From an uncultured Actinomycetes bacterium (GTDB lineage Bacteria > Actinomycetota > Actinomycetes > Nanopelagicales > Nanopelagicaceae): 51,528 bases of DNA. Both the position numbers and the translations under genes were made by a program. Below, piece after piece: positions 7,047-36,918 of this stretch (positions are counted from its first letter, which is position 1; every line of letters starts with the position of its first letter). The stretch spans positions 1 to 51,528 of the forward strand of contig CAIUFY010000064.1 of NCBI GenBank assembly GCA_903898555.1, written 5' to 3'. The notes beneath the pieces are model-generated. The model saw nothing but the letters and a program-made list of their open reading frames with translations, was not told the origin of the DNA and searched no databases.

Positions 7047-7160
7047 ACAGGAATTTAAGCCTATTTACTGGGCAGTGACGAATGATGCTTGAAAGGTGTC
7101 CTCAAAATGACCAATATGAGTTTAGAATTTGAGCCTTACACATAATATTTGGGAGAAGCC

Positions 7161-7481: not shown

Positions 7482-7490
7482 GGAATTCAA

Positions 7491-24516: not shown

Positions 24517-25510
24517 GATTCCGCAAATACAAGTTATTACAGCGATAGGGGAAGCTGACCTTGAAGATTATGTGGCTCAGCTTCTATTCTCGCAAGGGTG
24601 GAGCATCATCTTTAGGGCCTTCGATTGGATCTCGCTTACCGACTTTATGGGTTCGCGCTCGACCGAATTGCGAACTGTGGTTGTTTATACGACTGATATT
24701 TCTGGCTTTACCTCAGATTCACTACTGAAGTTTGGAAGCCCTACCGTAAGTTTCATATCTCTTGATGAGACACCTAAGAGTGCTCACGAGATTATGCAGA
24801 AGATTCGAACTCAACTTCGGCTTCCAATGATTCAGTCGACCGTTTCAATAAGTCAGGTATCGAAGAATTCTCCGGAAATTCAAGAAAAACAAAAGAGTTT
24901 GATACTCGTGACAGGAAGCTCTGGCGCCCCAGGCAAGACAAAATTTGCTCTCGCGATAGCCGACTATTTGAGTTCTATGAGAAAGGTCACTTTGGTTGAT
25001 ATCGATTTTCGATCAACTCCACTTCAGAGCTACGAGCCAGCTAATAATTTCTCAATCGTTTCATTGAGTCCACTGGAGAAGCCCACGCAGATGCCAGATC
25101 TAGATAAGAAGGAACTCTTGATTGTAGATGCGGGAGTTCTTCCCCCCATTCGAGAAGTTGTTGATGATCGCCGATGGGTTGCATTGCTCTTGAATCACAT
25201 CCTGGAAACCTCCACTCATCTTGTCTATGTCTGCCAGTCAACGAAACAAAGCTTGATGCAGCTAGACCAATTCAAAAAGGAAATTACGTCGTTGACTAAG
25301 AAGATCCCAGTTACTTACATCTGCATATCTGTAGGGCAGTCAGGGGAACTTCGCAAGGCACAGGCGGCGTTCACAAAGCTCACGGTGGGGGAGCAAAGTT
25401 TCATCCTTGGGCAAGGAAAATTGGGTCTGCAAAGCGATGGGTTTCTCGATAACTTTCTCGCCTCGGGTAAGAAGAAAGAGATTGGTACTATCGCTTCCTC
25501 ACTCCTATAA
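24506..25510 (+). CDS. CpaE/ParA/MinD-like P-loop protein with N-terminal receiver-like domain
   Basis: Overlaps the SAF gene by 11 nt. Walker A-like LILVTGSSGAPGKTKFALAIA, then VTLVDIDF and LLIVDAG. The first 120 aa or so have an alternating beta/alpha pattern resembling the CpaE pseudo-receiver. Confidence 0.6.
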   Translation: MRSEIPQIQVITAIGEADLEDYVAQLLFSQGWSIIFRAFDWISLTDFMGSRSTELRTVVVYTTDISGFTSDSLLKFGSPTVSFISLDETPKSAHEIMQKIRTQLRLPMIQSTVSISQVSKNSPEIQEKQKSLILVTGSSGAPGKTKFALAIADYLSSMRKVTLVDIDFRSTPLQSYEPANNFSIVSLSPLEKPTQMPDLDKKELLIVDAGVLPPIREVVDDRRWVALLLNHILETSTHLVYVCQSTKQSLMQLDQFKKEITSLTKKIPVTYICISVGQSGELRKAQAAFTKLTVGEQSFILGQGKLGLQSDGFLDNFLASGKKKEIGTIASSLL

Positions 25511-25543: not shown

Positions 25544-27025
25544 ATGACATCCCCACGCATTGAAGCTGCATATGCTCAAACCGCTCTCAGCCCTGAGGAT
25601 AAGGACCGACTCTCTGAACTTATAGCTGAATGGCAGTTGCTTTCAGATCTTTCATTTGCAGATTTAATTTTGTGGGTACCAAAGCGGAAGGATTACCAAA
25701 GTTGGCCCCAGGGCTATATTGCAGTTGCTCACATTCGCCCAACAACAGCGGCAACAGTTTTTGCCTTTGATGTAATCGGTGATGAACTAAATTGGGGCGA
25801 TAACCCCCGGCTTGATCAAGCACTCTCGCAAGGTGAGATTGTTAGAGATACAGAGCCAGAGCAGGTCGGTGAACTTCTCATAAAAGAGGAAACGGTTCCA
25901 GTTTTGTACAACGGTCACATAATTGCCGTTATCTCTCGCCACCGTGATGCGGTCCAGATGCGCTCGGCATCACGTCTTGAAATTAACTATCGCGAAATAG
26001 CTCACAAAATTTATCGAATGGTTGCAGAAGGAACTTTCCCAATCCAAAACAGCATCTATCGCGCTGAATCAGCTCCACGAGTTGGTGATGGACTCATCCG
26101 ACTAGATCCAAACGGTTCGATTGTTTACGCGAGCCCAAATGCTCGTTCTGCCCTAAGTCGAGGCGGCTGGGAAGTAGAGCTAGAAGATCACATATTTGGC
26201 GGAGTACTTGAAGCTATTGCCTCCGGCGGCGGCGAGGCAACTGATGAGACTTGGTCGGCAATCTTCAGCGGCAAGAATCTTCGACGAACAGATTTAGACA
26301 ATAGTCGAGCCATCCTAGATCTTTTGATTATTCCTCTTATCGAAGATGGGGATCGTATTGGTGCGGTTGTCCTTGTTCGAGATGTAACAGAGCTTCGACG
26401 TCGTGATCGCGCTCTTCTTACGAAAGACGCAACGATTCGTGAAATTCACCATCGCGTGAAGAACAATCTACAAACCGTATCGGCGCTATTGCGATTGCAA
26501 TCACGTCGAGTAGAGGATCCTGAAGCGTCTCAGGCACTTGCTGAAGCGGTTCGCCGAGTGGCTTCTATTGCCATTGTTCACGAAACGCTTTCCACAAGCT
26601 CTGCTGAAACAGTGCTCTTTGATGAGGTTTATGATCGAATAATCCATAATGCGATTGAACTGAGTGTGCGTCCTGTGAGATTGATGAAAACCGGAAATTT
26701 TGGGGTTTTCGGCGCGCAACAAGCAACTCCATTAGCCCTTGTCATCACCGAACTAATTCATAATTCGCTCGAACATGGTCTTGCAGTTTCAGGCGATCTT
26801 CTTCACGTTGACGTTGAAGTAGGTGAAGAAAACATCATTGTTAAAGTTATTGATAACGGCGTTGGACTTCCAAGCGGTTTTACCTTTGAAAGCTCATCGA
26901 ATCTTGGCTTGCAGATAGTTCGAACGCTCACAGAGAATGAACTTAAGGGCACCATTAAGCTCTCAAGAGTCGGAAACGAAACTCAGGCGATACTTACATT
27001 CCCTGCAAGGAAAGACTCTCTATAA
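25544..27025 (+). CDS. pdtaS: Soluble HisKA_2-type sensor histidine kinase, PdtaS-like
   Basis: The H-box is TIREIHHRVKNNLQTVSALLRLQ. The ATPase motifs are ELIHNSLEH, DNGVGLP and LGLQIV. A roughly 290-aa N-terminal sensory region has no TM segment. Confidence 0.8.
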   Translation: MTSPRIEAAYAQTALSPEDKDRLSELIAEWQLLSDLSFADLILWVPKRKDYQSWPQGYIAVAHIRPTTAATVFAFDVIGDELNWGDNPRLDQALSQGEIVRDTEPEQVGELLIKEETVPVLYNGHIIAVISRHRDAVQMRSASRLEINYREIAHKIYRMVAEGTFPIQNSIYRAESAPRVGDGLIRLDPNGSIVYASPNARSALSRGGWEVELEDHIFGGVLEAIASGGGEATDETWSAIFSGKNLRRTDLDNSRAILDLLIIPLIEDGDRIGAVVLVRDVTELRRRDRALLTKDATIREIHHRVKNNLQTVSALLRLQSRRVEDPEASQALAEAVRRVASIAIVHETLSTSSAETVLFDEVYDRIIHNAIELSVRPVRLMKTGNFGVFGAQQATPLALVITELIHNSLEHGLAVSGDLLHVDVEVGEENIIVKVIDNGVGLPSGFTFESSSNLGLQIVRTLTENELKGTIKLSRVGNETQAILTFPARKDSL

Positions 27026-27613: not shown

Positions 27614-28360
27614 CTAAAGGTTTACTTCCCCTAGTGCTTGAAGAATGTCCGGTGCTACCACCGGATTATGGCTTCTCCTAGCGATCTTTCCCGCCATAGA
27701 GTGCATTTGAACCGCCTTGAAGACAACTTCCTGCGCTTGCGCAATTCCAGTTGGTTTCCAGCTCGCCAACATTGAACCAATGATTCCGGCCAAGATGTCG
27801 CCAGATCCAGCCGTCGCGAGCTCTGTTCCGCCAATTTCATCAATTCTCTGCGGCAGTCTTGGCGCCGCAACTATCGTCTTTACGCCTTTCAAAACAAGTA
27901 TCGCACCAAGTTCATCAGAAATTCGTTGTGCAGTTTCGTAGCGACTTCCAAGGGAGTATCCCAAATACTTTAATTCGCCTTCATGTGGCGTTAATACTGT
28001 AATTGGATTTCTCTTTACGTCGACGAAAGCTATGGCGGCGCTATCTAGGACTAAAGAAATATCGCGCGGAATATTTGAAATTCTTGGTGAACCTGGTCCA
28101 ACTACAAGTGCATCTAGTTTTTCATCATGCCAATCTAAAACGCTTACAACATCTGGATATGTACTCGTCACAATTTTCGTGATTGATTTGAATTCGCTTA
28201 AGTATTTAACATATCCCGCTCCACCACGTCGCGCACCACCTAGACTAAGTATTGCCGCACCTGGGAATTTTTCACTCCCGGCACTTACTCCTACGACTCC
28301 GCGGGTGTACTTATTTGCATCTATAGGAAGATCTGCCAAATACTTTGGTCGCTTGAACAT
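27614..28360 (-). CDS. nnrD: ADP-dependent NAD(P)H-hydrate dehydratase (YjeF C-terminal type)
   Basis: KYTRGVVGVSAGSEKFPGAAILSLGGARRGGAGYV, LTPHEGE, VLKGVKTIV, TAGSGDILAGIIG. No epimerase domain is present. Confidence 0.85.
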   Translation of the reverse strand: MFKRPKYLADLPIDANKYTRGVVGVSAGSEKFPGAAILSLGGARRGGAGYVKYLSEFKSITKIVTSTYPDVVSVLDWHDEKLDALVVGPGSPRISNIPRDISLVLDSAAIAFVDVKRNPITVLTPHEGELKYLGYSLGSRYETAQRISDELGAILVLKGVKTIVAAPRLPQRIDEIGGTELATAGSGDILAGIIGSMLASWKPTGIAQAQEVVFKAVQMHSMAGKIARRSHNPVVAPDILQALGEVNL

Positions 28361-28473
28361 GAGACTATTCTAATTTGCGAGAGAGCCGAGGGCTACCACT
28401 TATAAGGTCTTAATGTGTTGAGCAGCACGCCTTCTTTGACCAACTTTGAACTTTTCGCCTTGCATCGCAGGCA

Positions 28474-28479
28474 TAGTAT
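28474..28479 (+). promoter_or_regulatory. Candidate -10 hexamer for a leaderless oxidoreductase operon
   Basis: TAGTAT (TANNNT type) ends 6 nt before the GTG start at 28485. No Shine-Dalgarno sequence precedes that start. Confidence 0.25.
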
Positions 28480-28484
28480 GAACT

Positions 28485-29075
28485 GTGTTTCAAATCCGAA
28501 TCCACGGACGAGGTGGGCAGGGTGTAGTTACCGCCGCCGAGTTATTGAGTGTTGCCGCATTCCTAGATAAACAACATGCACAAGCTTTTCCGAGCTTTGG
28601 TTCTGAAAGAACTGGCGCACCTGTTGTTTCCTTCTGTCGAATTAGTGAAAATCCAATTCGCCTTCGAGAACCCGTTCTTGAACCTGATGCAATTCTTATT
28701 CAAGATCCAACCCTGTTGCACTCCATTGATGTCTTTTCTGGCGCCAAGAGCGATGGTTACATGATCATTAATACAACAAAGTCTTTTGCTGAACTTGGAA
28801 TTGATGAGTTCGTCTCATCCAGACCAGCAAATCGCAATTTCATAGTGCCTGCCTCGGATATTGCGTTGAAACATGTAGGTCGACCAATGCCAAATGCAGC
28901 GCTACTTGGAGGCTTTGCTGCCGCCACCCAGAAGGTAACGCTTGCCAGTGTTGTTGCTGCTATTGAAGATAGGTTCCCAGCAAAAATTGCTGCGGGAAAC
29001 GTCGCCGCCGCAACCGAAGCTTATGAATTTGTCATAAACGAACTTAAAGAGGTAACTAATGTTGCAACAAATTGA
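28485..29075 (+). CDS. porG: 2-oxoacid:ferredoxin oxidoreductase, gamma subunit
   Basis: IRIHGRGGQGVVTAAELL is the gamma-subunit signature. About 196 aa. Confidence 0.85.
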   Translation: MFQIRIHGRGGQGVVTAAELLSVAAFLDKQHAQAFPSFGSERTGAPVVSFCRISENPIRLREPVLEPDAILIQDPTLLHSIDVFSGAKSDGYMIINTTKSFAELGIDEFVSSRPANRNFIVPASDIALKHVGRPMPNAALLGGFAAATQKVTLASVVAAIEDRFPAKIAAGNVAAATEAYEFVINELKEVTNVATN

Positions 29076-30315
29076 AGGCTCTAAGGCGGTTGCTGAAACG
29101 ATTGCCGCGTGTATGCCTGATGTGGTTTGCGCGTATCCAATTTCTCCTCAAACTCATATAGTCGAAGCGCTGGATGAACTAACTCGCTTAGGAAAAATTG
29201 GTAATTGCCAATTCGTAAATGTGGAATCTGAATTTTCTGCTATGTCCGTGGCGATTGGAGCCTCTGCGACTGGCGCCCGCACTTACACCGCAACAGCGAG
29301 TCAAGGCCTCCTCTTTATGGTGGAGCCTGTTTACAATGCATCAGGTTTGGGCCTACCAATTGTTATGACGGTTGCAAACCGCGCCATCGGTTCACCTATA
29401 AATATTTGGAATGATCAAAGTGATTCAATGAGCCAACGCGACTCTGGTTGGATTCAGTTGTACGCGCAAGACAATCAGTCAGCTGCCGACCTTCATATTT
29501 TGGCCTTTCGATTAGCAGAAGAGCTTTCACTTCCCGTAATGGTATGTATGGATGGATTTATTCTGACTCACGCAATGGAGGAGATTGACGTTGCAGATAT
29601 AGATCTTGTACAGAAATATCTTCCAAAATTCGCGCCGCGACAAGTTTTGGATCCACAAGATCCTGTCTCCATTGGTGCAATGGTGGGGCCTGAAGCATTT
29701 ACGGAAGTTAAGTATTTGGGCCATTTCAAGCAACTAAAAGCCCTTGAAATTATTCCTGAACTTTCCGAGCAATTTGAAGAGGTCTTTGGAAGACCTGCAG
29801 CCGGTCCAGATGATTACAAGGGGCTTGTTACAAAATATCACCTTGAGGATGCAGAAGTTGTTTTGGTTGCGCTTGGGTCGGTCCTCGGAACTATAAAAGA
29901 TGCTGTTGATGAACACCGCAAAAATGGAATAAAGGTTGGCGCTATGGGAATTACTTCCTTTAGACCATTCCCATTAGATGAGGTGCGAAAGTCGCTTAAG
30001 CACGCGCAAAAGATCGTTGTTGTAGAACGCGCTTTTGCTCCCGGCGTAGGTGGCATCGTCTCTTCGAATATTCGCACAGCGCTAAGCGCGATTGATATCA
30101 AAATAAATACGGTAGTGGCAGGCCTTGGCGGACGTCCGATAACTTTGAAGTCGATTAGTGAGTTAGTGGACAAGGCTTTGTACGGCTCACTTCCAGAGTT
30201 TTCGTTTATGGATTTGGATGTCGAGTTGGTTGAACGCGAACTTGAGCGAAATCTATTGACGAGACGATCAGGTCCAATGGCCGAAAACCTTTTGAAAGAT
30301 TTGGGAACACGATGA
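29059..30315 (+). CDS. porA: 2-oxoacid:ferredoxin oxidoreductase, alpha subunit
   Basis: EGSKAVAETIAACMPDVVCAYPISPQTHIVE and SEFSAMSVAIGASATGARTYTATASQGL. AAGAGG lies upstream and the gene overlaps the gamma gene by 17 nt. Confidence 0.9.
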   Translation: MLQQIEGSKAVAETIAACMPDVVCAYPISPQTHIVEALDELTRLGKIGNCQFVNVESEFSAMSVAIGASATGARTYTATASQGLLFMVEPVYNASGLGLPIVMTVANRAIGSPINIWNDQSDSMSQRDSGWIQLYAQDNQSAADLHILAFRLAEELSLPVMVCMDGFILTHAMEEIDVADIDLVQKYLPKFAPRQVLDPQDPVSIGAMVGPEAFTEVKYLGHFKQLKALEIIPELSEQFEEVFGRPAAGPDDYKGLVTKYHLEDAEVVLVALGSVLGTIKDAVDEHRKNGIKVGAMGITSFRPFPLDEVRKSLKHAQKIVVVERAFAPGVGGIVSSNIRTALSAIDIKINTVVAGLGGRPITLKSISELVDKALYGSLPEFSFMDLDVELVERELERNLLTRRSGPMAENLLKDLGTR

Positions 30316-31307
30316 GTACTCCATTAAAGTTTTATCAAGTCGGTTCATTTGCAGTTGGAAATCGTCTTCTAGGCGATGAGCAGCTTTCAGTTCAGTCTCG
30401 CTCCGACCGCACAAATTCCCTTACTTCGGGTCACAGAGCTTGCCAAGGTTGCGGGGAAGCACTTGGCGCTCGTTATGTCATGGACGCGGCCATGGCTGCA
30501 ACTGATGGAAAAGTAATTGCAGTAAATGCCACAGGCTGTCTCGAAGTTTTCTCAACCCCGTACCCAGAAACTTCTTGGCGGCTGCCATGGATGCATTCAC
30601 TCTTCGGAAATGCAGCACCGGTTGCAACTGGTGTGGCCTTCGCGCTTAAGGCGCAGGGACGCTCAGATATTCGAGTCGTTGCTCAAGGTGGTGACGGAGG
30701 AACCGTTGATATTGGGTTTGGTCCACTTTCTGGCATGTTTGAAAGAAATGATGATGTGCTTTACGTCTGTTATGACAATGAGGCGTATATGAACACGGGA
30801 GTCCAACGTTCGGGAGCAACACCTCCAGCCGCAAGAACAAATACCACTCATGCTGTTGGTGAAAATCCCGGAGCATCGTTTACTCAAGGCAAGAATCTTC
30901 CGAAGATCGCTATGGCTCATGGAATTCCTTATGTCGCTACCGCATCTGTATCTGATTTGCATGACCTCGAAGAAAAAGTTACAAAAGCAATGAGCATGCA
31001 TGGTGCCCGTTATCTTCACGTCTTAGTTCCTTGCCCATTAGGTTGGGGAACGCGCAGTGAGGAAACCATTAAATTGGCTCGTTTAGCGACTGAGTCTGGT
31101 CTCTTCCCGGTTTATGAAGCCGAAGACGGGGTAGTTACTGCCACAAAGAAGATTCGCAAACAAGTCCCTGTCGATGAGTACTTGCAGATTCAAAAGCGTT
31201 TCTCGCATCTCTTTGGTCCAAAAGGAAATCCTGAATTAGTGAAAGCTATCCAAGAGATTGCGAATCGTAATATTGCTGAGTTTGATTTATTAGGAGAGGC
31301 TCAATGA
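30312..31307 (+). CDS. porB: 2-oxoacid:ferredoxin oxidoreductase, beta (TPP) subunit
   Basis: GHRACQGCGEALGARY and the TPP motif QGGDGGTVDIGFGPLSG...CYDNEAYMNTGVQRS. ATGA overlap with the alpha gene. Confidence 0.9.
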   Translation: MSTPLKFYQVGSFAVGNRLLGDEQLSVQSRSDRTNSLTSGHRACQGCGEALGARYVMDAAMAATDGKVIAVNATGCLEVFSTPYPETSWRLPWMHSLFGNAAPVATGVAFALKAQGRSDIRVVAQGGDGGTVDIGFGPLSGMFERNDDVLYVCYDNEAYMNTGVQRSGATPPAARTNTTHAVGENPGASFTQGKNLPKIAMAHGIPYVATASVSDLHDLEEKVTKAMSMHGARYLHVLVPCPLGWGTRSEETIKLARLATESGLFPVYEAEDGVVTATKKIRKQVPVDEYLQIQKRFSHLFGPKGNPELVKAIQEIANRNIAEFDLLGEAQ

Positions 31308-32923
31308 GTAAGCCATTTGCAATTACGCTAAATATCGGATCTTCACTTGCCAACCACACAGGTTCGTGGCGAAGTGAGAGACCCGTCTACGTAAACCGCA
31401 TGCCGCCTTGTAATAACGCATGTCCAGCTGGCGAAGATGTCCAAGGTTGGCTCTACGAGGGCGAATCTGGCAATTATGAGCAAGCATGGAGAAATCTTGT
31501 TAGGGATAATCCATTTCCAGCGATTATGGGAAGAATTTGTTATCACCCATGTCAGACTGCATGTAACCGTGCAGATGTAGATGAGGCTGTCGGAATCAAT
31601 TCTGTGGAGCGCTTCCTTGGCGATCAGGCCATAGATAAAGGTTGGCAATTTACTGCCCCAACAACAAAAAGTGGTCGCAGAATTCTAATTGTTGGTTCAG
31701 GACCTTCTGGATTATCTGCGGCATATCACCTTGCAATGAAAGGTCACGAAGTCGTCATTCGCGAAAGCGCAGCAGAACCTGGCGGAATGATGCGTTACGG
31801 AATTCCCGCATACCGACTTCCTCGAGAAGTGCTCGATGCAGAAATTTCTCGCTTGGTTAATATCGGCGTGCGAATTGAATGTAATACAAAAGTTGAAAAT
31901 CCTGAGAGCGCTATCAAAGATGGATTTGATGCTGTCTTCCTTGCAATTGGAGCTCACTTAGGAAAGCGCGCTTACATCCCTGCAGGCGACACTGTTCGAA
32001 TTCTTGATGCGGTATCGGTTCTTCACATGACAGCGGATGGAGAGCCACCATTATTAGGACGAAGTGTGGTCGTGTATGGCGGAGGAAATACGGCCCTTGA
32101 TGCAGCGCGTACTGCTAAACGCCTCGGAGCATATGAAGCGATAGTTGTTTACCGTCGTACTCAAGAAAAAATGCCGGCTCACGCAAGTGAATTAAAAGAA
32201 GCCCTTGAAGAAGGCATTGTGATGCGTTGGCTTTCCACCATCGCATGGGTGAATTCTGGCGCTGTCACTATCGAGCGCATGGAACTAGATAGCGCGGGCA
32301 TGCCGCAACCAACAGGGGAGTTTGAATCCCTTCAAGCTGATTCCGTTATTTTGGCCCTTGGACAAGAGGTCGACCTAAGTATTGTCGAGGGAATCCAAGG
32401 CATAACCATTGACGATGGAGTTATCGAGGTAAATGAATTCCTCATGACAGGGAGGGACGGAATTTTCGCTGGTGGAGACGCGGTTCCTGGCGAAAGAACT
32501 GCAACAAATGCAATCGGTCATGGAAAGCATGCAGCGCGAGCAATCAACTCTTGGCTTGAAGGACAAACTTTTGTTCATGCTCCACGTCCAGAATTGGCAA
32601 GTTTTGATCGACTTAACACTTGGTATTACTCGGATGCACCGAAGAAGGTCCGACCTAAGTTAGATGCCGCAAGGCGTGCAGAGAGTTTTGCAGAGGTGGT
32701 TCAAGGCTTGGATGAAGCAACTGCGCTATTTGAAGCAAGGCGCTGCTTATCCTGCGGAAACTGCTTTGGTTGCGACAACTGTTTTGGCGTCTGCCCGGAC
32801 AACGCTGTCATAAAGCTCGCTGACGGAAAGTACGAGATAAATCTCGACTACTGCAAGGGCTGTGGAATCTGTGCAAACGAATGCCCGTGTGGAGCCATAG
32901 ATATGGTGCCTGAACGTTCGTAA
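31304..32923 (+). CDS. Delta-subunit ferredoxin with an inserted GltD/NfnB-like FAD/NAD(P)H oxidoreductase module
   Basis: ATGA overlap with the beta gene. PorD-like N-terminus TGSWRSERPVY. GltD-type Cys motifs CNNACPAGE and RICYHPCQTACNR. Two dinucleotide folds (ILIVGSGPSGLSAAYHL, VVVYGGGNTALDAA). The C-terminus has 2x[4Fe-4S] (CLSCGNCFGCDNCFGVCP, CKGCGICANECP). Confidence 0.8.
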   Translation: MSKPFAITLNIGSSLANHTGSWRSERPVYVNRMPPCNNACPAGEDVQGWLYEGESGNYEQAWRNLVRDNPFPAIMGRICYHPCQTACNRADVDEAVGINSVERFLGDQAIDKGWQFTAPTTKSGRRILIVGSGPSGLSAAYHLAMKGHEVVIRESAAEPGGMMRYGIPAYRLPREVLDAEISRLVNIGVRIECNTKVENPESAIKDGFDAVFLAIGAHLGKRAYIPAGDTVRILDAVSVLHMTADGEPPLLGRSVVVYGGGNTALDAARTAKRLGAYEAIVVYRRTQEKMPAHASELKEALEEGIVMRWLSTIAWVNSGAVTIERMELDSAGMPQPTGEFESLQADSVILALGQEVDLSIVEGIQGITIDDGVIEVNEFLMTGRDGIFAGGDAVPGERTATNAIGHGKHAARAINSWLEGQTFVHAPRPELASFDRLNTWYYSDAPKKVRPKLDAARRAESFAEVVQGLDEATALFEARRCLSCGNCFGCDNCFGVCPDNAVIKLADGKYEINLDYCKGCGICANECPCGAIDMVPERS

Positions 32924-33002
32924 GTCAGTGGGGCAGACCTCTTGCGCTTAATCTCAAATGGGTAGACTATAACCAGGTTCAAGCTTTAGCGAGGGGGGAT
33001 TG

Positions 33003-33428
33003 ATGAAAATCGAGTCACTGATTTCCGGGAAAAAAGTTGCGACTATTTCACCAAGTGCGAGTGTGCACGATTTAGTTTCATTGCTGGAAACTCATCACAT
33101 CGGAGCCCTTATCGTTTCGCGAGATGGAATTCAAATTGATGGAATAGTTTCAGAACGCGATGTCGTTCGCGCGATGCCTTCCAAGATAAATCAACTGGTT
33201 GATTTGCATGTCAGAGACTTGATGACTGTCGAAGTCATTAGCTGCACATCGCAAAGCACTGTTGCTGAAATCATGAATGCTATGACAGAAAATCGAATTA
33301 GACATATGCCGGTTGTCGACATCGACGGCAATCTCCTATCCATCGTCTCAATTGGCGACTTAGTCAAGGCTCATATTCAAGAACTTGATTCAGAGCGGGT
33401 TGCCCTCCGGGAATACATCACACACTGA
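33003..33428 (+). CDS. Stand-alone CBS-pair protein
   Basis: Two CBS repeats (VHDLVSLLETHHIGALIVSRDGIQIDGIVSERDV; VAEIMNAMTENRIRHMPVVDIDGNLLSIVSIGDL). GAGGGGGG lies 4 nt upstream of ATG 33003. Confidence 0.8.
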   Translation: MKIESLISGKKVATISPSASVHDLVSLLETHHIGALIVSRDGIQIDGIVSERDVVRAMPSKINQLVDLHVRDLMTVEVISCTSQSTVAEIMNAMTENRIRHMPVVDIDGNLLSIVSIGDLVKAHIQELDSERVALREYITH

Positions 33429-33503
33429 GCACCAACTGAGTCCCACCTCACTTTTTTCGTTTAGTACTCGTGGGTACGCTTTTTGTGGGTCAGAATTGCG
33501 CCC

Positions 33504-34916
33504 ATGACAAAGACGCTACCGAAGATCATCCAAGGTGGCATGGGCGTCGCCGTTTCGAACTGGGAATTGGCAAAGGCCGTCTCAACCCACGGTGGTATGG
33601 GTGTTGTCTCCGGCACTGCAATTGATGCCGTCTTGATCCGTAGATTGGAAAGCGGGGATGCCGGCGGGCATGTTCGCCGTGCGCTTGCCGCATTTCCAAA
33701 TCAGGAAACGGCTAATGCAATAGTTGAAAAGTATTTTATTGAAGGTGGAAAAGAAAAGACTGAATCTTTTTCAAATGCTCCAAAACTTCTCATAAATGCT
33801 CATCGCCATTCCAATGATTTACTAATTCTTGGAGCATTCGTCGAAGTATGGCTCGCTAAAGAAGGCCACGATGGGCAAGTTGGAATCAACTTTCTTGAAA
33901 AGATTCAGATGGGTTCTGCGGCTGGAATTTTAGGTGCGATGCTCGCGAATGTTGATTATGTAATTATGGGGGCAGGAATTCCTCGCGAGATTCCGCGATT
34001 TATTACTGAAGTTTCCCAAAAGAAAAGTAGCTACATCACTGTTGATATTGTGAATGGTGATTCTCAACGCATCACCATCGATCCTTCCGAATTTGTAGAT
34101 ATTTCTAAGATTGAATTTGTTCGACCAATGTTTTTGGCAATCATCATTAACGATGTACTTGCTGCTTATTTGGCACGTGATGAATCAAGTCGTCCAGATG
34201 GCTTCATTATTGAAGGACCTTCGGCTGGCGGCCACAACGCTCCACCGCGAGGAAAGATTGAATTTGATGCAGAAAACGAGCCGATCTATGGCCCGCGTGA
34301 CCTTGCGAATCTGGAGAAGATGGTTAAGTACGGATATCCCTTCTGGCTTGCTGGTGGCTTTGGAGCGCGCGGCAAATTAAAGGATGCGCTTGCACTTGGA
34401 GCAGAAGGCGTGCAGGTTGGAACTCTCTTTGCACTGTCGAATGAGTCAGGATTTACTGACGAAATTCGCAATCAGATTCTTGGAACTCTTGCTGATGGAA
34501 CTTTTGAAATCCATACAGATATGAAGGCGTCTCCAACTGGTTTCCCAATCAAGATTGTTAATTTGCCTGGAACTACTGCTCTTCCCGAGGTATTCGCAGC
34601 TCGACCAAAGCTTTGCGACATGGGATATCTTCGTGAGCCAATCATGCTTAAGAGCGGAAGAGTTGATTACCGCTGTCCGAGCGAACCTGAGATTCCTTAC
34701 CTGAAGAAAGATGGAACTATTGAAGAGACCGAAGGGCGTAAATGCCTGTGCAACGGGTTGTTTTCAAATATTGGCTTAGGTCAACACCGCCGGGATGGTT
34801 ACGACGAGGCCCCAATTGTCACTCTGGGCTCCGATGTTGACGGCTGTAAAGAGCTCATAAAACTCCATCCAAATGGTTGGAGCGCTTCGCTAGCAATGGA
34901 CTTTATCGCCGAATAA
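33504..34916 (+). CDS. Nitronate monooxygenase-family FMN oxidoreductase (long form)
   Basis: LPKIIQGGMGVAVSNWELAKAVSTHGGMGVVSG and FIIEGPSAGGHN are NMO/2-nitropropane dioxygenase family motifs. Start reassigned to ATG 33504. Confidence 0.75.
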   Translation: MTKTLPKIIQGGMGVAVSNWELAKAVSTHGGMGVVSGTAIDAVLIRRLESGDAGGHVRRALAAFPNQETANAIVEKYFIEGGKEKTESFSNAPKLLINAHRHSNDLLILGAFVEVWLAKEGHDGQVGINFLEKIQMGSAAGILGAMLANVDYVIMGAGIPREIPRFITEVSQKKSSYITVDIVNGDSQRITIDPSEFVDISKIEFVRPMFLAIIINDVLAAYLARDESSRPDGFIIEGPSAGGHNAPPRGKIEFDAENEPIYGPRDLANLEKMVKYGYPFWLAGGFGARGKLKDALALGAEGVQVGTLFALSNESGFTDEIRNQILGTLADGTFEIHTDMKASPTGFPIKIVNLPGTTALPEVFAARPKLCDMGYLREPIMLKSGRVDYRCPSEPEIPYLKKDGTIEETEGRKCLCNGLFSNIGLGQHRRDGYDEAPIVTLGSDVDGCKELIKLHPNGWSASLAMDFIAE

Positions 34917-35012: not shown

Positions 35013-35282
35013 ATGCCAAGCCAGACCGTAGTTGTAGGTAGCAAAGTTGGACTTCATGCACGACCTGCGTCTCTGCTTGTAAAGGCTTCGAGTGGATCGG
35101 GGCTTTCGGTAACAGTTGGGAAACCCGGAGAGAAGGCGGTTAATGCTGCTTCGCTCCTTTCGGTTTTAGCCCTTGGAATTCAAAACGGTGACACCGTCCA
35201 AATAACAGTCTCCGACGGAGCAAGCGCCGACGCCTTGTTGGCCCAGCTAATAGAAATTGTTGCCACCGACCAAGATGAATAG
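35013..35282 (+). CDS. ptsH: Phosphocarrier protein HPr
   Basis: GLHARPAS (His15 site) and AASLLSVLALG (Ser46 region). 89 aa. AAGGAG RBS. Confidence 0.9.
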   Translation: MPSQTVVVGSKVGLHARPASLLVKASSGSGLSVTVGKPGEKAVNAASLLSVLALGIQNGDTVQITVSDGASADALLAQLIEIVATDQDE

Positions 35283-36918
35283 TCTTGTAGGGATTGGAGT
35301 TTCTCCTGGAGTTGCTGTCGGCAAAGCGTGCCGGATTGCACAGATCACTTCAGTCGGACCAATTCCTGCAACACCACGGAAAGTTTTTGATTCACTTAAT
35401 TTAGTAGTTGCCGATTTAGAGCGAGCCGCAAAAACCGTTGAACTCGATATCGTGCGAGATGTATTAGGCGTTCAAGCCATGATGGCTTCTGATCCGGCAC
35501 TGATTGAAGCGATTGGCGCAAGGCTCAGTCAAGATATTGAGTACAAAGATGTTCGTCCAGATATCATCGATTCTTTTCGTGGTTTTAAAACAGCGCTTTC
35601 TGCCCTTGGCGGCTATTTTGCTGAGCGGATTGTTGATCTTGATGACATATTGAGCCAGCTTTTAAATAAACTTGCAGGAACCGAACATCAACTAATAAAT
35701 CTTGCAGAACCCAGCATTGTTATCGCCGATGAGCTCACACCGTCAGATACGGCGCACATTAATCTAAATTATGCCCTCGCCCTTGTTGTAGCAAAGGGCG
35801 GTCCCACCTCACATGCGGCAATTGTCGCTCGCGGACTTGGTATCCCGGCAATTGTCGGTTGCAAAAGAGCGCTAGAGATTGAAGATGGATCAGTTCTTCT
35901 TGTAGATGGCAGGCAAGGGAAAATCTATATTGATCCAAAGGCTACGGAAGTGGAATCAGCACAACTGCGCGAAGAAGCGTTAAGGGCCCGGGCAGCAGCA
36001 GTAGTCGGTCCTGGCCGACTAAAAGATGGATCTCACATCACACTTCTTGCAAATGTTAGTGATGTAAACGGAGCCATAGAAGCGGCAGCAGCCGGGGCCG
36101 ATGGAATTGGTCTTTTGCGTACAGAGTTGCTCTTTATTGATTCGACATCGGAACCAACAGTAGAAGATCAAGTTGCAACATATAAGAAAATATTTGATCT
36201 TATGCAAGGGCGCCGAGTTATTGTAAGAACTCTGGATGCGGGAAGCGACAAACAAATTCCATATTTGAATTCCAGTAAAGAACAAAATCCTGCCCTCGGC
36301 ATTCGAGGATGGCGCTTAACTCGCACTCATGATGCAGTGCTGGAGCGTCAACTTGAAGCAATTTCAAAAGCAGCAGAAGGGATTTCTCTTGAACTTTGGG
36401 TCATGGCCCCGATGGTTAGCACTCCAGCGGAAGCAAATGACTTTGCGACCAGAGCGCGAGCATTGGGAATCAAAAAAGTTGGAGTGATGATTGAAACTCC
36501 TGCGGCAGCAATCCATGCAGAGAAAGTCCTACTTGAAGTTGATTTTGGTTCTATAGGCACAAATGATTTAGCCCAATATGTAATGGCATCTGATCGAATG
36601 GATTCAAGACTTTCAGATTTGGCTACGACATGGAATCCAGCTGTTCTTCGAACAATTCAGATTGCATGTGAAAGTGCAAATAAACTAAACAAGACAAATG
36701 GTGTTTGTGGTGAAGCAGCTTCTGACCCTTATCTTGCCGCAGTTCTTTTGGGCTTAGGAGTAACTTCGCTTTCAATGGTGCCAAGCGCGATTGCAGAAGT
36801 GCGCGAATTTCTCTCGACTTTAGATTTGGCTACCTGCGTTGAAGTCGCCACACTCGCTCTGAATGCAGACAGCGCGCAAGAAGCAGAATCCTTAGTTAAG
36901 GAAAATCTTCAACGATGA
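35275..36918 (+). CDS. ptsI: PEP-protein phosphotransferase (PTS enzyme I)
   Basis: GIGVSPGVAVGKA N-terminus, phospho-His loop GGPTSHAAIVARGLGIPAIVG, PEP-utilizer C-domain (GLLRTELLF, FGSIGTNDLAQY). ATG 35275 overlaps the ptsH 3' end by 8 nt. Confidence 0.9.
   Translation: MNSLVGIGVSPGVAVGKACRIAQITSVGPIPATPRKVFDSLNLVVADLERAAKTVELDIVRDVLGVQAMMASDPALIEAIGARLSQDIEYKDVRPDIIDSFRGFKTALSALGGYFAERIVDLDDILSQLLNKLAGTEHQLINLAEPSIVIADELTPSDTAHINLNYALALVVAKGGPTSHAAIVARGLGIPAIVGCKRALEIEDGSVLLVDGRQGKIYIDPKATEVESAQLREEALRARAAAVVGPGRLKDGSHITLLANVSDVNGAIEAAAAGADGIGLLRTELLFIDSTSEPTVEDQVATYKKIFDLMQGRRVIVRTLDAGSDKQIPYLNSSKEQNPALGIRGWRLTRTHDAVLERQLEAISKAAEGISLELWVMAPMVSTPAEANDFATRARALGIKKVGVMIETPAAAIHAEKVLLEVDFGSIGTNDLAQYVMASDRMDSRLSDLATTWNPAVLRTIQIACESANKLNKTNGVCGEAASDPYLAAVLLGLGVTSLSMVPSAIAEVREFLSTLDLATCVEVATLALNADSAQEAESLVKENLQR

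What the first reader, a model, noticed from the sequence alone, without database searches (positions are those of the whole stretch)
28474..32923. Four-subunit-type 2-oxoacid:ferredoxin oxidoreductase whose delta ferredoxin carries an inserted GltD/NfnB-like NAD(P)H-FAD module
Seen: four overlapping genes (17 nt, ATGA, ATGA). The first three are the gamma, alpha and beta subunits, with GRGGQG, YPISPQT, and CQGCG plus GDGG...YDNEAYMNTG motifs. The gene in the delta position encodes 539 aa rather than a small ferredoxin. It keeps the PorD-like start TGSWRSERPVY. It then has GltD-type Fe-S motifs (CNNACPAGE, RICYHPCQTACNR) and two dinucleotide-binding folds. It ends with a 2x[4Fe-4S] domain (CLSCGNCFGCDNCFGVCP; CKGCGICANECP). 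Inference: electrons from 2-oxoacid oxidation could pass within one complex to NAD(P)+, or NAD(P)H could drive reductive carboxylation, without free ferredoxin. This would be a functional analogue of the eukaryotic pyruvate:NADP+ oxidoreductase fusion, built from different parts. It is unexpected in an actinobacterium, where two-subunit KorAB-type enzymes are the usual OFOR. The operon may be leaderless (TAGTAT 6 nt before the GTG).
Basis: partly seen in the sequence, partly recalled or inferred. Interest (0 to 1): 0.6.

Follow-up and report, generated by a model that had tools for sequence, protein, structure and literature searches.

The report
Pyruvate-type oxidoreductase with built-in NADPH module
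A freshwater actinobacterium carries a four-gene iron-sulfur enzyme for oxidising pyruvate-like keto acids in which an NADPH-binding flavoprotein is spliced into the small ferredoxin subunit, so electrons probably go straight to NADP+; the design is widespread and catalogued, but I found no biochemical study of this form.

Summary
Four overlapping genes (28485-32923, + strand) encode Por-type gamma, alpha and beta subunits and a 539-aa fourth protein.

New detail on the fourth protein:
- Residues 4-32 match residues 3-31 of a solved PorD (9bt4_G). Residues 486-537 match PorD 32-83. A 453-aa module therefore sits exactly between PorD residues 31 and 32.
- The module is a circularly permuted GltD/NfnB-type flavoprotein, as in StnC and DsrL. 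All eight NfnB cluster ligands and the NADP(H)-specifying YRR motif map onto it. They are invariant in 82 homologues.

Most likely it is a ferredoxin-independent 2-oxoacid (probably pyruvate):NADP+ oxidoreductase.

- The cassette is native to Actinomycetota, though patchy: 26 of 150 genomes in the family.
- It occurs in at least 600 species and matches NCBIfam NF009410.
- NADPH-driven carboxylation is thermodynamically unlikely.
- A purified precedent exists, the 2-oxoglutarate:NADP+ oxidoreductase of Azoarcus evansii. It is built on a KorAB core.

I found no biochemical study of the Por-type form. This scan has already found the same design on other DNA several times. Verdict: a new variant of a known kind, of moderate interest.

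The parts
28474..28479 (+). TAGTAT, a -10-like TANNNT hexamer that ends 5 nt before the GTG start of the first gene. It is a candidate promoter for a leaderless transcript.
   Evidence: Sequence. A TANNNT hexamer lies 5-6 nt before the same GTG in five relatives of the same family, although their upstream DNA is otherwise not alike. The sigma-70 consensus scan found nothing here. No RNA data were available.
28485..29075 (+). Gamma subunit (PorC-like, 196 aa). It is the CoA-binding domain III of OFORs and carries GRGGQG.
   Evidence: Pfam POR, E 2e-37. TIGR02175 PorC_KorC scores 191.7 bits against a cut-off of 81. PRK08534 (pyruvate Fd OR gamma) scores 205, below its cut-off of 225.
29059..30315 (+). 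Alpha subunit (PorA-like, 418 aa): domains I and II, the TPP pyrimidine side and the substrate pocket.
   Evidence: Pfam POR_N plus PFOR_II. PorA_Arch scores 427.8 bits, below its cut-off of 550. The best solved relative is Methanosarcina PFOR alpha, 9bt4_B, E 5e-108. D. africanus positions T31, R114 and I123 align to S29, R108 and I116.
30312..31307 (+). Beta subunit (PorB-like, 331 aa): TPP diphosphate binding and the proximal [4Fe-4S] cluster (CQGCG...).
   Evidence: Pfam TPP_enzyme_C, E 2e-21. PorB PRK11865 scores 334.9 bits, below its cut-off of 405.
31304..32923 (+). Chimeric delta subunit (539 aa): a PorD split by an NADPH flavoprotein.
   Evidence: NF009410/PRK12771 matches over the full length at 736.7 bits, cut-off 516. 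AF2 model: pLDDT 80, pTM 0.79. The best fold matches are StnC 8oh5_C and Nfn-ABC 9bov_A, TM 0.75.
31313..31399 (+). Delta residues 4-32: the N-terminal arm of PorD, presumed to dock on the alpha/beta core.
   Evidence: The only PDB hit of the first 40 residues is PorD 9bt4_G residues 3-31, E 1.7e-4. PorD_Arch profile positions 6-31 match at E 2.5e-4. G20, W22 and R23 are invariant in 82 sequences.
31400..31642 (+). Delta residues 33-113: the GltD-type Fe-S domain. It supplies C36 and C87 to the distal cluster. It supplies C40, C79, C83 and E102 to the proximal cluster.
   Evidence: Pfam Fer4_20. The alignment to T. maritima NfnB 4ylf_B places these residues on C47, C100, C51, C90, C96 and E117. 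The ligand list comes from PMC7596348. All are invariant.
31679..32524 (+). Delta residues 126-407: the FAD domain with the NADP(H) domain embedded in it. Motifs: GSGPSG, GGGNTA and YRR (283-285).
   Evidence: Pfam Pyr_redox_2, E 4e-28. Y283-R284-R285 align to NfnB Y310-R311-R312, the 2'-phosphate site according to PMC7596348. They are invariant in 82 sequences.
32654..32758 (+). Delta residues 451-485: the permuted segment. In NfnB and GltD it is the N-terminus. It supplies C481 and C484, the other two ligands of the distal cluster.
   Evidence: HMMER aligns delta 451-485 to residues 12-46 of 5jca_L, and delta 457-485 to residues 15-43 of 4ylf_B. C481 and C484 fall on C39 and C42. The order matches StnC 8oh5_C residues 101-573.
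32759..32914 (+). Delta residues 486-537: the PorD 2x[4Fe-4S] ferredoxin core (C487, C490, C493, C497, C517, C520, C523, C527).
   Evidence: Matches 9bt4_G residues 32-83, E 1e-17. TIGR02179 positions 25-77 score 60.7 bits against a cut-off of 60.05. All eight Cys are invariant.

Best explanation
The four genes encode one complex, (alpha-beta-gamma-delta')n. It is a Por-type, thiamine-diphosphate-dependent 2-oxoacid oxidoreductase whose acceptor is NADP+ rather than free ferredoxin.

Proposed path. The first step follows from family membership, the rest are inferred:
1. Pyruvate (most likely) is decarboxylated on TPP at the alpha/beta interface. The acyl group goes to CoA, which is bound by gamma.
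2. The two electrons leave one at a time through the beta-subunit [4Fe-4S] cluster.
3. They pass to the two clusters of the PorD-like core of delta' (residues 486-537).
4. They step to the distal GltD-type cluster. Its ligands come from both ends of the insert (C36, C87, C481, C484). C484 lies only three residues before the first PorD ligand, C487.
5. They move on to the Glu-ligated proximal cluster (C40, C79, C83, E102).
6. They collect on FAD, which hands a hydride to NADP+ (YRR motif).

The PorD N-terminal arm (residues 4-32) is kept and probably anchors delta' to the core. Because the permuted flavoprotein begins and ends at one cluster, it can sit in a loop of PorD as a plug-in.

The reaction has the same driving force as an NAD-linked pyruvate dehydrogenase, but it yields NADPH. 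In this 1.47-Mb genome it is an accessory enzyme beside AceE-type PDH, an E1-alpha/beta-type complex, OdhA and a KorA-type OFOR.
For: - Subunit identities.
- PorD is split exactly at residues 31|32. Delta 4-32 matches 9bt4_G 3-31, the only PDB hit (E 1.7e-4). Delta 486-537 matches 9bt4_G 32-83. PorD_Arch profile positions 6-31 and 28-84 are matched by the two ends.
- No stand-alone PorD reaches the cut-off anywhere in the genome.
- All eight T. maritima NfnB cluster ligands and the YRR motif map residue for residue (with the ligand list and YRR role from PMC7596348).
- All 16 cluster ligands, YRR and both GxGxxG/A motifs are invariant in 82 homologues from three phyla that share only 63-84% overall identity.
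- porC-porA-porB lies directly upstream on the same strand in all 80 related loci as far as the contigs reach. All three genes are seen in 66 of them.
- No other neighbour is shared by more than 6 of the 80 loci, so the four genes are the unit.
- Stop/start overlaps of 17, 4 and 4 nt suggest co-translation.
- The fold model matches StnC. In that solved complex the same permuted module passes NADPH electrons through its two clusters to further Fe-S clusters, without bifurcating (PMC10482914).
- Precedent: the Azoarcus evansii 2-oxoglutarate:NADP+ oxidoreductase has a subunit placed among GltD/NfnB homologues (PMC10134865). A KorAB-linked cluster of that build sits in a Rhodocyclaceae genome. 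Its 606-aa flavoprotein has the same domain order and is 32% identical to delta'.
- Pyruvate as substrate: the Por models outscore the Vor, Pad and oxalate models for all three subunits. The pyruvate-contacting positions are kept.
Against: - There are no biochemical data for any member of this Por-type family in the searched literature.
- PorA, PorB and PorC scores all fall below NCBIfam's equivalog cut-offs, so the substrate is not settled.
- The genome already has PDH, OdhA, an E1-alpha/beta complex and a KorA-type OFOR. No metabolic gap points to this enzyme.
- I could not measure cluster-to-cluster distances. Model coordinates are not exposed and no multimer model is available.
- The proximal cluster keeps the Glu ligand typical of bifurcating NfnB, not the Lys of non-bifurcating StnC (PMC10482914). 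More complex flavin chemistry is therefore not excluded.
- The host is presumably an aerobe, and OFOR clusters are often oxygen-sensitive.
- No expression data exist for this stretch.
Confidence: 0.65

Rival explanations
1. The wiring to NADP+ is the same, but the physiological substrate is another 2-oxoacid, not pyruvate. Candidates are 2-oxoisovalerate and other branched-chain or aromatic 2-oxoacids from amino-acid catabolism, or 2-oxoglutarate.
For: - Alpha, beta and gamma all score below the PorA, PorB and PorC equivalog cut-offs: 427.8 vs 550, 334.9 vs 405 and 205 vs 225.
- The Vor models still score well, at 295 and 279 bits.
- The genome already has an AceE-type PDH for pyruvate.
[quoted passage not shown] I infer the match from the four-gene count and did not check it by sequence.
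Against: - The Por models are the best hit for all three subunits.
- The Pad models score far below their cut-offs: 255 vs 700, 195 vs 700 and 135 vs 300.
- The closest solved enzyme is a pyruvate:ferredoxin oxidoreductase, E 5e-108, against 7.5e-55 for oxalate OR and 4.6e-16 for 2-oxoglutarate synthase.
- The pocket positions equivalent to T31, R114 and I123 are S, R and I.
- The genome also has an E1-alpha/beta complex and OdhA for the other substrate classes.
Confidence: 0.2
2. The enzyme runs in reverse, or reversibly. NADPH reduces the Fe-S chain and drives reductive carboxylation of acetyl-CoA to pyruvate, making it an NADPH-dependent pyruvate synthase.
For: - OFOR chemistry is reversible in principle (PMC13768988, abstract).
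- GltD, DPD and StnC modules normally carry electrons from NADPH into Fe-S chains (PMC8097209, PMC10482914).
- The cassette occurs in autotrophs such as Gallionella and Sulfurisoma.
Against: - From established redox potentials, pyruvate/acetyl-CoA+CO2 lies near -500 mV and NADP+/NADPH at -320 mV. The reverse reaction is uphill by roughly 35 kJ/mol.
- No energy-coupling partner is conserved with the cassette.
- The host is a streamlined heterotroph-type genome with PDH.
Confidence: 0.05
3. The FAD of delta' bifurcates or confurcates electrons as in NfnB. The complex would then couple 2-oxoacid oxidation and NADP(H) to a third redox partner, such as free ferredoxin or flavodoxin, or an NfnA/PyrK-like protein encoded elsewhere.
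For: - All NfnB cluster ligands are kept, including the Glu on the proximal cluster. That Glu is thought to keep the cluster at very low potential, and non-bifurcating StnC has Lys there (PMC10482914).
- A protein with a DHODB_Fe-S_bind domain is encoded on another contig (C115).
Against: - No NfnA-like gene lies in or beside the cassette in any of 80 loci.
- The C115 protein may simply be PyrK.
- 2-oxoacid to NADP+ is exergonic on its own, so bifurcation is not needed.
- DsrL proteins of the same build act as plain NAD(P)H:acceptor oxidoreductases (PMC7596348).
Confidence: 0.05
4. Delta' is not the electron outlet. The complex still reduces a free ferredoxin or flavodoxin from the PorD core. 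The NADPH flavoprotein then serves another purpose, for example keeping or restoring the clusters in a reduced, active state in an oxygen-exposed cell.
For: - The host lineage lives in oxic lake water, inferred from the homologues' names.
- Other ferredoxin-like ORFs exist in the genome, at C65 and at window 7176-7331.
- The PFOR review describes redox-dependent protection and activation in some PFORs (PMC13768988).
Against: - This is a heavy, strictly conserved 453-aa insert with every catalytic motif invariant.
- Its distal cluster is sequence-adjacent to the PorD cluster. That looks like a main electron path, not an accessory one.
- The KGOR precedent reduces NADP+ catalytically (PMC10134865, citing Ebenau-Jehle 2003).
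Confidence: 0.05

Closest known systems
2-Oxoglutarate:NADP+ oxidoreductase (KGOR) of Azoarcus (Aromatoleum) evansii, Ebenau-Jehle, Boll and Fuchs 2003, J Bacteriol 185:6119. Cited through PMC10134865, because the paper itself could not be opened.
   Same: - It is an OFOR that reduces NADP+ through an extra iron-sulfur flavoprotein subunit of the GltD/NfnB group.
- A KorAB-linked cluster of this build in a Rhodocyclaceae genome (L081) has a 606-aa flavoprotein with the same order of parts: Fer4_20, FAD/NAD(P), an 'RCxxC' segment and a C-terminal dicluster domain.
   Different: - KGOR has a two-subunit KorAB-type core, not Por gamma/alpha/beta.
- Its substrate is 2-oxoglutarate.
- The flavoprotein is only 32% identical to delta' and falls below the NF009410 cut-off, at 412.8 vs 516 bits.
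- It has no clear PorD arm.
- The L081 cluster carries an extra thioredoxin-reductase-like gene.
- I could not show by sequence that L081 is orthologous to the purified enzyme.
Four-subunit pyruvate:ferredoxin oxidoreductase PorABCD (solved: Methanosarcina acetivorans, PDB 9bt4)
   Same: - Alpha matches at E 5e-108.
- The beta and gamma families are the same.
- Both halves of PorD are present and contiguous in register: 3-31 and 32-83.
   Different: - Delta is not an 85-aa ferredoxin. It carries a 453-aa NADPH flavoprotein between PorD residues 31 and 32.
- The gene order is C-A-B-delta', not C-D-A-B (PMC13768988).
- Scores fall below the Por equivalog cut-offs.
- The presumed acceptor is NADP+, not ferredoxin.
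StnC of the Sporomusa ovata StnABC transhydrogenase (PDB 8oh5) and the related Nfn-ABC (9bov, 9n5u)
   Same: - It is the best sequence and fold match to the insert, E 3e-91 and TM 0.75.
- It has the same circular permutation, with the 'RCLxC' segment after the flavin domain.
- Its FAD takes or gives NADP(H) electrons through two [4Fe-4S] clusters to further clusters, without bifurcation (PMC10482914).
   Different: - StnC is fused to NuoG/FdhF-like domains and works with StnAB, not with an OFOR.
- Its proximal cluster has Lys170 where delta' has Glu102.
DsrL, the NAD(P)H:acceptor oxidoreductase of dissimilatory sulfur metabolism (PMC7596348)
   Same: - The domain order is identical: N-terminal two-cluster domain, FAD domain with embedded NAD(P) domain, a linker of about 100 aa, and a C-terminal two-cluster ferredoxin domain.
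- The YRR motif marks the NADP(H)-using forms.
   Different: - DsrL partners with DsrAB.
- The authors excluded look-alikes whose genes adjoin pyruvate/ketoisovalerate:ferredoxin oxidoreductase genes, and this is such a case.
- DsrL has Ser or Thr at the NfnB Cys39 position, while delta' has Cys (C481).
   Same: The overall reaction would be the same: pyruvate + CoA + NADP+ with no free ferredoxin.
   Different: From established knowledge, PNO is a one-chain PFOR fused to a cytochrome-P450-reductase-type FMN/FAD module. Here the core has four subunits and the NADPH module is a GltD/NfnB-type Fe-S flavoprotein. The two solutions are unrelated.
Phenylglyoxylate:NAD+ oxidoreductase PadEFGHI of Azoarcus evansii
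   Same: It is a Por-like OFOR core linked to a pyridine nucleotide. The alpha, beta and gamma subunits give secondary hits to PadG, PadI and PadE.
   Different: - Scores are far below the Pad cut-offs.
- PadF (delta) is a plain 78-position ferredoxin model, so the NAD module is a separate subunit.
- The enzyme has five subunits.

Membership tests
Four-subunit Por/Vor-type 2-oxoacid:ferredoxin oxidoreductase | Alpha subunit with POR_N and PFOR_II domains; beta with the TPP_enzyme_C domain; gamma with the POR domain | tested here: met
   Pfam E-values run from 2e-21 to 4e-65. TIGR02175 scores above its cut-off.
Four-subunit Por/Vor-type 2-oxoacid:ferredoxin oxidoreductase | Delta is a separate small (about 80-105 aa) 2x[4Fe-4S] ferredoxin subunit | tested here: not met
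   Both PorD halves are present, but 453 aa separate them inside a 539-aa protein. No stand-alone PorD is found in the genome.
Four-subunit Por/Vor-type 2-oxoacid:ferredoxin oxidoreductase | Scores above the NCBIfam equivalog cut-offs for pyruvate synthase PorA, PorB and PorC | tested here: not met
   427.8 vs 550, 334.9 vs 405 and 205 vs 225. These are still the best-scoring models for each subunit.
Four-subunit Por/Vor-type 2-oxoacid:ferredoxin oxidoreductase | Free ferredoxin or flavodoxin is the physiological acceptor | not testable with these tools
   This needs enzyme assays.
NCBIfam NF009410 (PRK12771) 'NAD(P)-binding protein' subfamily | Full-length match above the curated cut-off | tested here: met
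   736.7 bits against a cut-off of 516. Residues 12-537 match profile positions 26-565 of 566.
Azoarcus-type 2-oxoglutarate:NADP+ oxidoreductase (KGOR) | Two-subunit KorA/KorB core (gamma domain fused to alpha) | tested here: not met
   Here gamma and alpha are separate Por-type genes. The KGOR-like locus L081 has a 636-aa KorA with POR and POR_N fused.
Azoarcus-type 2-oxoglutarate:NADP+ oxidoreductase (KGOR) | Extra GltD/NfnB-group Fe-S flavoprotein subunit with a C-terminal dicluster domain | tested here: met
   The domain order is the same as in the L081 flavoprotein, at 32% identity. KGOR is placed among GltD/NfnB homologues in PMC10134865.
Azoarcus-type 2-oxoglutarate:NADP+ oxidoreductase (KGOR) | Catalytic reduction of NADP+ by a 2-oxoacid plus CoA | not testable with these tools
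   This needs enzyme assays. The YRR motif is only a predictor (PMC7596348).
NfnB / NfnAB transhydrogenase | Eight ligands for two [4Fe-4S] clusters (7 Cys plus 1 Glu), FAD, and an NADPH site with YRR | tested here: met
   All map one to one onto T. maritima NfnB numbering, but in circularly permuted order. All are invariant in 82 sequences.
NfnB / NfnAB transhydrogenase | Partner NfnA ([2Fe-2S] plus FAD, PyrK-like) encoded alongside | tested here: not met
   None lies in the window's cassette or in 80 related loci. The only DHODB_Fe-S_bind hit above the cut-off is on another contig.
DsrL | DsrL domain order (Fe-S domain, FAD/NAD(P), linker, C-terminal ferredoxin domain) | tested here: met
   compared with the description in PMC7596348.
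DsrL | Gene not linked to pyruvate/ketoisovalerate:ferredoxin oxidoreductase genes (an explicit criterion of PMC7596348) | tested here: not met
   The gene overlaps porB by 4 nt. The linkage holds in 80 of 80 loci.
Phenylglyoxylate:NAD+ oxidoreductase PadEFGHI | Scores above the PadE, PadG and PadI equivalog cut-offs | tested here: not met
   135 vs 300, 255 vs 700 and 195 vs 700.

The most novel reading that the evidence does not exclude
The NfnB-like flavin of delta' keeps the Glu-ligated, very-low-potential proximal cluster of bifurcating NfnB. It might therefore be a true bifurcating or confurcating centre. The complex would then couple 2-oxoacid/acyl-CoA+CO2, NADP(H) and a third partner. 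That could make pyruvate synthesis from NADPH feasible, or conserve the roughly 180 mV otherwise lost, in aerobic freshwater and soil bacteria.
Probability: 0.05. Interest if true: 0.85.

Novelty: new variant of a known kind. Interest (0 to 1): 0.5.

Why it matters
If the prediction holds, many aerobic and facultative bacteria have a second, overlooked way to turn pyruvate-type keto acids into acyl-CoA. It would be an Fe-S/TPP enzyme that makes NADPH directly, with no lipoate and no free ferredoxin. The carriers include some abundant freshwater acI-type Actinomycetota, soil Solirubrobacterales, Streptomyces, Rhodoferax, Gallionella and Accumulibacter.

This bears on three things:
- Metabolic models currently book these genes as 'pyruvate:ferredoxin oxidoreductase' plus a stray 'glutamate synthase small subunit'.
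- It affects how NADPH budgets of streamlined plankton are estimated.
- The construction is a clean example of modular enzyme evolution. A circularly permuted flavoprotein has both ends pinned by one Fe-S cluster, so it can be plugged into a loop of a ferredoxin.

The 2026 PFOR review (PMC13768988) and the 2021 review of GltD-like Fe-S flavoenzymes (PMC8097209) do not mention this class.

Tried and rejected
- **Expression and transcript start.** The look-up of sequencing runs (kind rna) listed no RNA holder for window:28300-33000. I therefore did not lay reads and have no expression or start-site evidence.
- **Key paper.** Ebenau-Jehle 2003 could not be opened by DOI or by PMC225024. What I say about KGOR rests on PMC10134865 and on my own recollection. 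I give no subunit sizes as fact.
- **Structure.** Model coordinates are not exposed. I could not measure Cys-Cys or cluster distances, or check that the PorD arm packs on the PorD core.
- **Promoter and terminator scan.** The consensus scan of 28200-33600 gave fewer or no more sites than shuffles, and nothing at the operon ends.
- **Conserved neighbours as a clue to substrate.** None is shared by more than 6 of 80 loci. NAD(P)HX dehydratase upstream and HPr/Enzyme I downstream are therefore probably coincidental.
- **Literature.** Searches for a biochemical study of the Por-type form found none. Two searches failed on term syntax.
- **Recent transfer from Proteobacteria.** Rejected. The window's delta' nests among actinobacterial sequences, and the GC content of the operon matches the rest of the window.
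- **Delta' as a stand-alone DsrL- or GltD-like enzyme.** Rejected, given the 4-nt overlap with porB, the linkage in 80 of 80 loci and the absence of any other PorD. The genome's ordinary GltD-like gene is elsewhere, at C66, with 31% identity.

Full report
**1. The observation**

The ORF listing gives four + strand genes:
- 28485-29075: 196 aa, GTG start.
- 29059-30315: 418 aa.
- 30312-31307: 331 aa.
- 31304-32923: 539 aa.

All quoted motifs are in the translations.

Pfam finds POR in the first gene, POR_N plus PFOR_II in the second and TPP_enzyme_C in the third. In the fourth it finds Fer4_20 (33-113), Pyr_redox_2 (126-407) and a 4Fe-4S dicluster domain (486-534).

NCBIfam ranks the pyruvate-synthase models PorC, PorA and PorB first for the three core subunits. 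All three score below the equivalog cut-offs: 205 vs 225, 427.8 vs 550 and 334.9 vs 405. The fourth protein matches NF009410 (PRK12771, 'NAD(P)-binding protein') over its full length at 736.7 bits, cut-off 516.

It ends 5 nt before the GTG at 28485.

**2. The fourth protein is a PorD cut in two**

- The last 52 residues (486-537) match residues 32-83 of the solved delta subunit of Methanosarcina acetivorans PFOR, 9bt4_G (E 1e-17).
- I searched the first 40 residues alone against all PDB sequences. The only hit is the same chain, residues 3-31 (E 1.7e-4).
- The two ends also match PorD_Arch profile positions 6-31 and 28-84.
- Delta' is therefore PorD with 453 residues (33-485) inserted exactly between PorD residues 31 and 32. 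That point lies between the N-terminal arm and the first Cys of the ferredoxin core.
- No stand-alone PorD reaches the TIGR02179 cut-off anywhere in the 1.47-Mb, 94.6%-complete genome.

**3. The insert is a circularly permuted NfnB/GltD-type flavoprotein**

HMMER against the PDB aligns delta' 34-421 with the NfnB large subunits 5jca_L and 4ylf_B. It also gives a second small alignment:
- delta' 451-485 aligns to residues 12-46 of 5jca_L;
- delta' 457-485 aligns to residues 15-43 of 4ylf_B.

So the stretch that opens NfnB comes last in the insert. The same order is colinear with StnC (8oh5_C residues 101-573) and Nfn-ABC (9bov_A). It also fits the DsrL description in PMC7596348.

PMC7596348 lists the T. 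maritima NfnB ligands: Cys39, 42, 47 and 100 on the distal cluster, and Cys51, 90, 96 and Glu117 on the proximal cluster. Counting along the alignments gives this mapping:

| NfnB (T. maritima) | delta' | Cluster |
|---|---|---|
| C39 | C481 | distal |
| C42 | C484 | distal |
| C47 | C36 | distal |
| C100 | C87 | distal |
| C51 | C40 | proximal |
| C90 | C79 | proximal |
| C96 | C83 | proximal |
| E117 | E102 | proximal |

NfnB Y310-R311-R312 holds the 2'-phosphate of NADPH and marks the NADP(H)-using DsrL-2 forms (PMC7596348). It aligns to Y283-R284-R285.

Two consequences follow. Both are inferences:
- The insert begins (C36) and ends (C481, C484) at the same cluster. Its two ends must therefore meet in space, which is what an insertion into a loop needs.
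- C484 lies three residues before C487, the first ligand of the PorD core. The distal flavoprotein cluster should therefore sit next to a PorD cluster.

Across 82 homologues from three phyla, at 63-84% overall identity, all of these are invariant: the 16 cluster ligands, YRR, both dinucleotide-fold motifs, and G20, W22 and R23 of the PorD arm.

An AlphaFold2 model of delta' (46-sequence alignment, pLDDT 80, pTM 0.79) finds StnC, Nfn-ABC and NfnABC as best fold matches (TM 0.73-0.76), then NfnI, Xfn, GltD and DPD. The linker 443-467 has low confidence. I could not obtain coordinates, so I measured no distances.

**4. The four genes are one unit, and a common one**

- The search for homologous proteins returned thousands of relatives. 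Full-length ones at 67% identity or more are named 'NAD(P)-binding protein', or by JGI '2-oxoacid:acceptor oxidoreductase delta subunit'. They come from Nanopelagicales, Thermoleophilia, Miltoncostaeales and Burkholderiaceae.
The 80 best come from:
  - Actinomycetota: Streptomyces, Georgenia, Gleimia, Actinomyces, Frankiaceae, Solirubrobacterales.
  - Alpha-, Beta- and Gammaproteobacteria: Rhodoblastus, Bradyrhizobium, Rhodoferax, Rubrivivax, Gallionella, Sulfurisoma, Accumulibacter and others.
  - One Bryobacteraceae genome.
- In every one of the 80 loci porB lies just upstream on the same strand. In the 66 loci with enough DNA, porC-porA-porB are all there in that order.
- No other neighbouring gene family is shared by more than 6 loci.

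**5. Place in the host and in Actinomycetota**

- The window has about 46% GC throughout, and the operon does not stand out.
- The genome is small (1.47 Mb), and close homologues are labelled Nanopelagicaceae or Nanopelagicales. I infer an acI-type freshwater actinobacterium.
- In its GTDB family the cassette was found in 26 of 150 other genomes. It is concentrated in a few genera: 8 of 9, 10 of 13 and 2 of 2. In the window's own genus it is in 2 of 13.
- In an even sample of the phylum it was found in 6 of 400 genomes. Only three candidates per genome were scored there, so this is a lower bound.
- A FastTree of 83 delta' sequences, rooted on the KorAB-linked relative, puts all Pseudomonadota and the one acidobacterium in one clade (support 90). 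The Actinomycetota lie outside it. The window's gene sits with other actinobacterial genes (Georgenia, Thermoleophilia, Gleimia). The outgroup branch is long, so the root is uncertain.
- A same-genus genome (G137) carries a 63%-identical copy at another place. That copy belongs to a different actinobacterial sub-lineage.
- In two same-genus genomes, synteny with the window stops right after the PdtaS-type kinase gene at 27025.

The cassette is thus an accessory trait inside Actinomycetota. It is not foreign to them.

**6. What the host already has**

- An AceE-type pyruvate dehydrogenase E1, above its cut-off.
- Three E2 catalytic domains, one of them inside a 1278-aa OdhA-like frame.
- An E1-alpha/beta-type gene next to an E2 on contig C170.
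- A second, KorA-type OFOR on C135.

No missing pathway step points to a substrate.

For pyruvate speak these points:
- The model ranking.
- The closest solved relative: M. acetivorans PFOR alpha at E 5e-108, against 7.5e-55 for oxalate oxidoreductase and 4.6e-16 for 2-oxoglutarate synthase.
- D. africanus PFOR positions T31, R114 and I123 align to S29, R108 and I116. That these residues contact pyruvate is my recollection of the D. africanus structure papers.

I put pyruvate at a little over one half, given that the wiring is right.

**7. Mechanism**

Shown:
- the domain content;
- the split PorD;
- the permutation;
- complete and invariant ligands and motifs;
- the strict four-gene linkage.

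Inferred: the electron path runs TPP, then the beta cluster, then the two PorD-core clusters, then the distal and proximal flavoprotein clusters, then FAD, then NADP+.

Direction: with pyruvate/acetyl-CoA+CO2 near -500 mV and NADP+/NADPH at -320 mV (textbook values), oxidation is downhill by about 35 kJ/mol. That is the same as for NAD-linked PDH. The reverse would need an energy input that nothing in the cassette supplies.

StnC shows that this module can act as a plain two-electron/one-electron converter between NADP(H) and an Fe-S chain (PMC10482914). Delta' keeps Glu at the proximal cluster, where StnC has Lys170. A bifurcating role is therefore not excluded, but no NfnA-like partner is linked.

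**8. What is known**

- The 2026 PFOR review lists one-, two-, four- and five-subunit forms and does not mention a flavoprotein-bearing delta.
- The 2021 review of GltD-like Fe-S flavoenzymes does not mention OFOR-linked forms.
- The DsrL study explicitly discarded DsrL look-alikes whose genes adjoin pyruvate/ketoisovalerate:ferredoxin oxidoreductase genes. The linkage has been seen but not studied.
- A Rhodoferax ferrireducens genome paper calls a four-gene cluster (Rfer_2184-87) 'phenylglyoxylate:acceptor oxidoreductase' by homology. This is probably the same cassette, but I did not check that by sequence.
- The functional precedent is the NADP+-reducing 2-oxoglutarate oxidoreductase of Azoarcus evansii. 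PMC10134865 places its subunit with NsoC among GltD/NfnB homologues.
- In a Rhodocyclaceae genome I found a cluster of that build: a 606-aa flavoprotein, a 346-aa thioredoxin-reductase-like protein, KorA and KorB. The flavoprotein has the same domain order as delta'. It is 32% identical and scores 412.8 bits on NF009410, below the cut-off.
- PadEFGHI, the NAD+-linked phenylglyoxylate enzyme, has a plain small delta, PadF.

**9. Leaderless start**

The GTG at 28485 is the first in-frame start, and it aligns with position 1 of the PorC models. There is no Shine-Dalgarno-like sequence before it. TAGTAT ends 5 nt upstream.

In five relatives from the same family the gene also starts GTG-TTY-CAA. 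A TANNNT hexamer ends 5-6 nt before that start: TAGTAT, TACGCT, TAGCAT, TACTCT and TAGGAT. The remaining upstream DNA differs between lineages. This fits a leaderless transcript. It stays unproven, because no RNA run holds the stretch.

**10. Earlier notes of this scan**

The same design has been reported on other genomes many times: look-alike stretches in 48 windows (further notes). Follow-up agents reached the same reading and also named KGOR as closest known. Two of their hints led me to checks that I then ran here:
- 'rearranged' flavoprotein: the permutation test;
- 'noticed in the literature, related to DsrL': the DsrL paper.

**11. Verdict**

The enzyme is a new, biochemically untested variant of a known kind, the NAD(P)+-linked OFORs. 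It is common and already catalogued under a generic name. Interest is moderate.

Noticed in passing
window 27614-28360 (-): An NAD(P)H-hydrate dehydratase gene (Pfam Carb_kinase, E 1e-35) is transcribed divergently from the operon, 124 nt from its start. It is a repair enzyme for damaged NAD(P)H beside a presumed NADPH-making enzyme. This is probably coincidence, since neighbours are not conserved in other loci.
   Followed up: partly
window 25544-27025 (+), and onward to about 38700: A PdtaS-type histidine kinase (GAF_PdtaS, HisKA_2). In two same-genus genomes, synteny with the window ends right after this gene. None of the next nine window genes is found downstream there. The region that holds the operon therefore looks like a flexible island.
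   Followed up: partly
window 35013-36918 (+): HPr (89 aa) and PTS Enzyme I (553 aa) overlap by 26 nt. I saw no Enzyme II gene beside them. I did not examine what a PTS stub does in a streamlined actinobacterium.
   Followed up: no
window 33000-34916 (+): A CBS-pair protein (142 aa) and a long NMO-family protein (477 aa; only residues 234-340 match the nitronate monooxygenase model) follow the operon. In the closest relative (G095) the NMO-like gene follows delta' directly, with no CBS gene between them.
   Followed up: partly
L085 (G137:C42), delta' at 6115-7728 (-): A genome of the window's own genus carries the same four-gene cassette at a different place. Its delta' is only 63% identical to the window's and belongs to another actinobacterial sub-lineage. 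The cassette seems to have entered or persisted in this genus twice.
   Followed up: partly
L081 6918-12526 (+) (Rhodocyclaceae genome G001:C31): A KGOR-like cluster: a 606-aa permuted GltD-like flavoprotein, a 346-aa thioredoxin-reductase-like flavoprotein, KorA and KorB, downstream of a 3-hydroxyacyl-CoA dehydrogenase gene. The flavoprotein has I-R-T where delta' has Y-R-R, so its nucleotide preference may differ.
   Followed up: partly
own genome contigs C17, C132, C135, C156, C170: A 1.47-Mb genome encodes five 2-oxoacid-oxidising systems: AceE-type PDH, an OdhA-like fusion, an E1-alpha/beta complex, a KorA-type OFOR and the cassette studied here. That is a notable redundancy for a streamlined genome.
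   Followed up: partly
window 36915-38678 (+): An acyltransferase-3 domain fused to an SGNH domain (587 aa) overlaps the Enzyme I gene by 4 nt. This type usually O-acylates cell-envelope glycans.
   Followed up: no
window 24506-25510 (+): A 334-aa ORF with no Pfam match at E<=1e-5. It is conserved (40-47% identity) and syntenic with the kinase gene in same-genus genomes.
   Followed up: no
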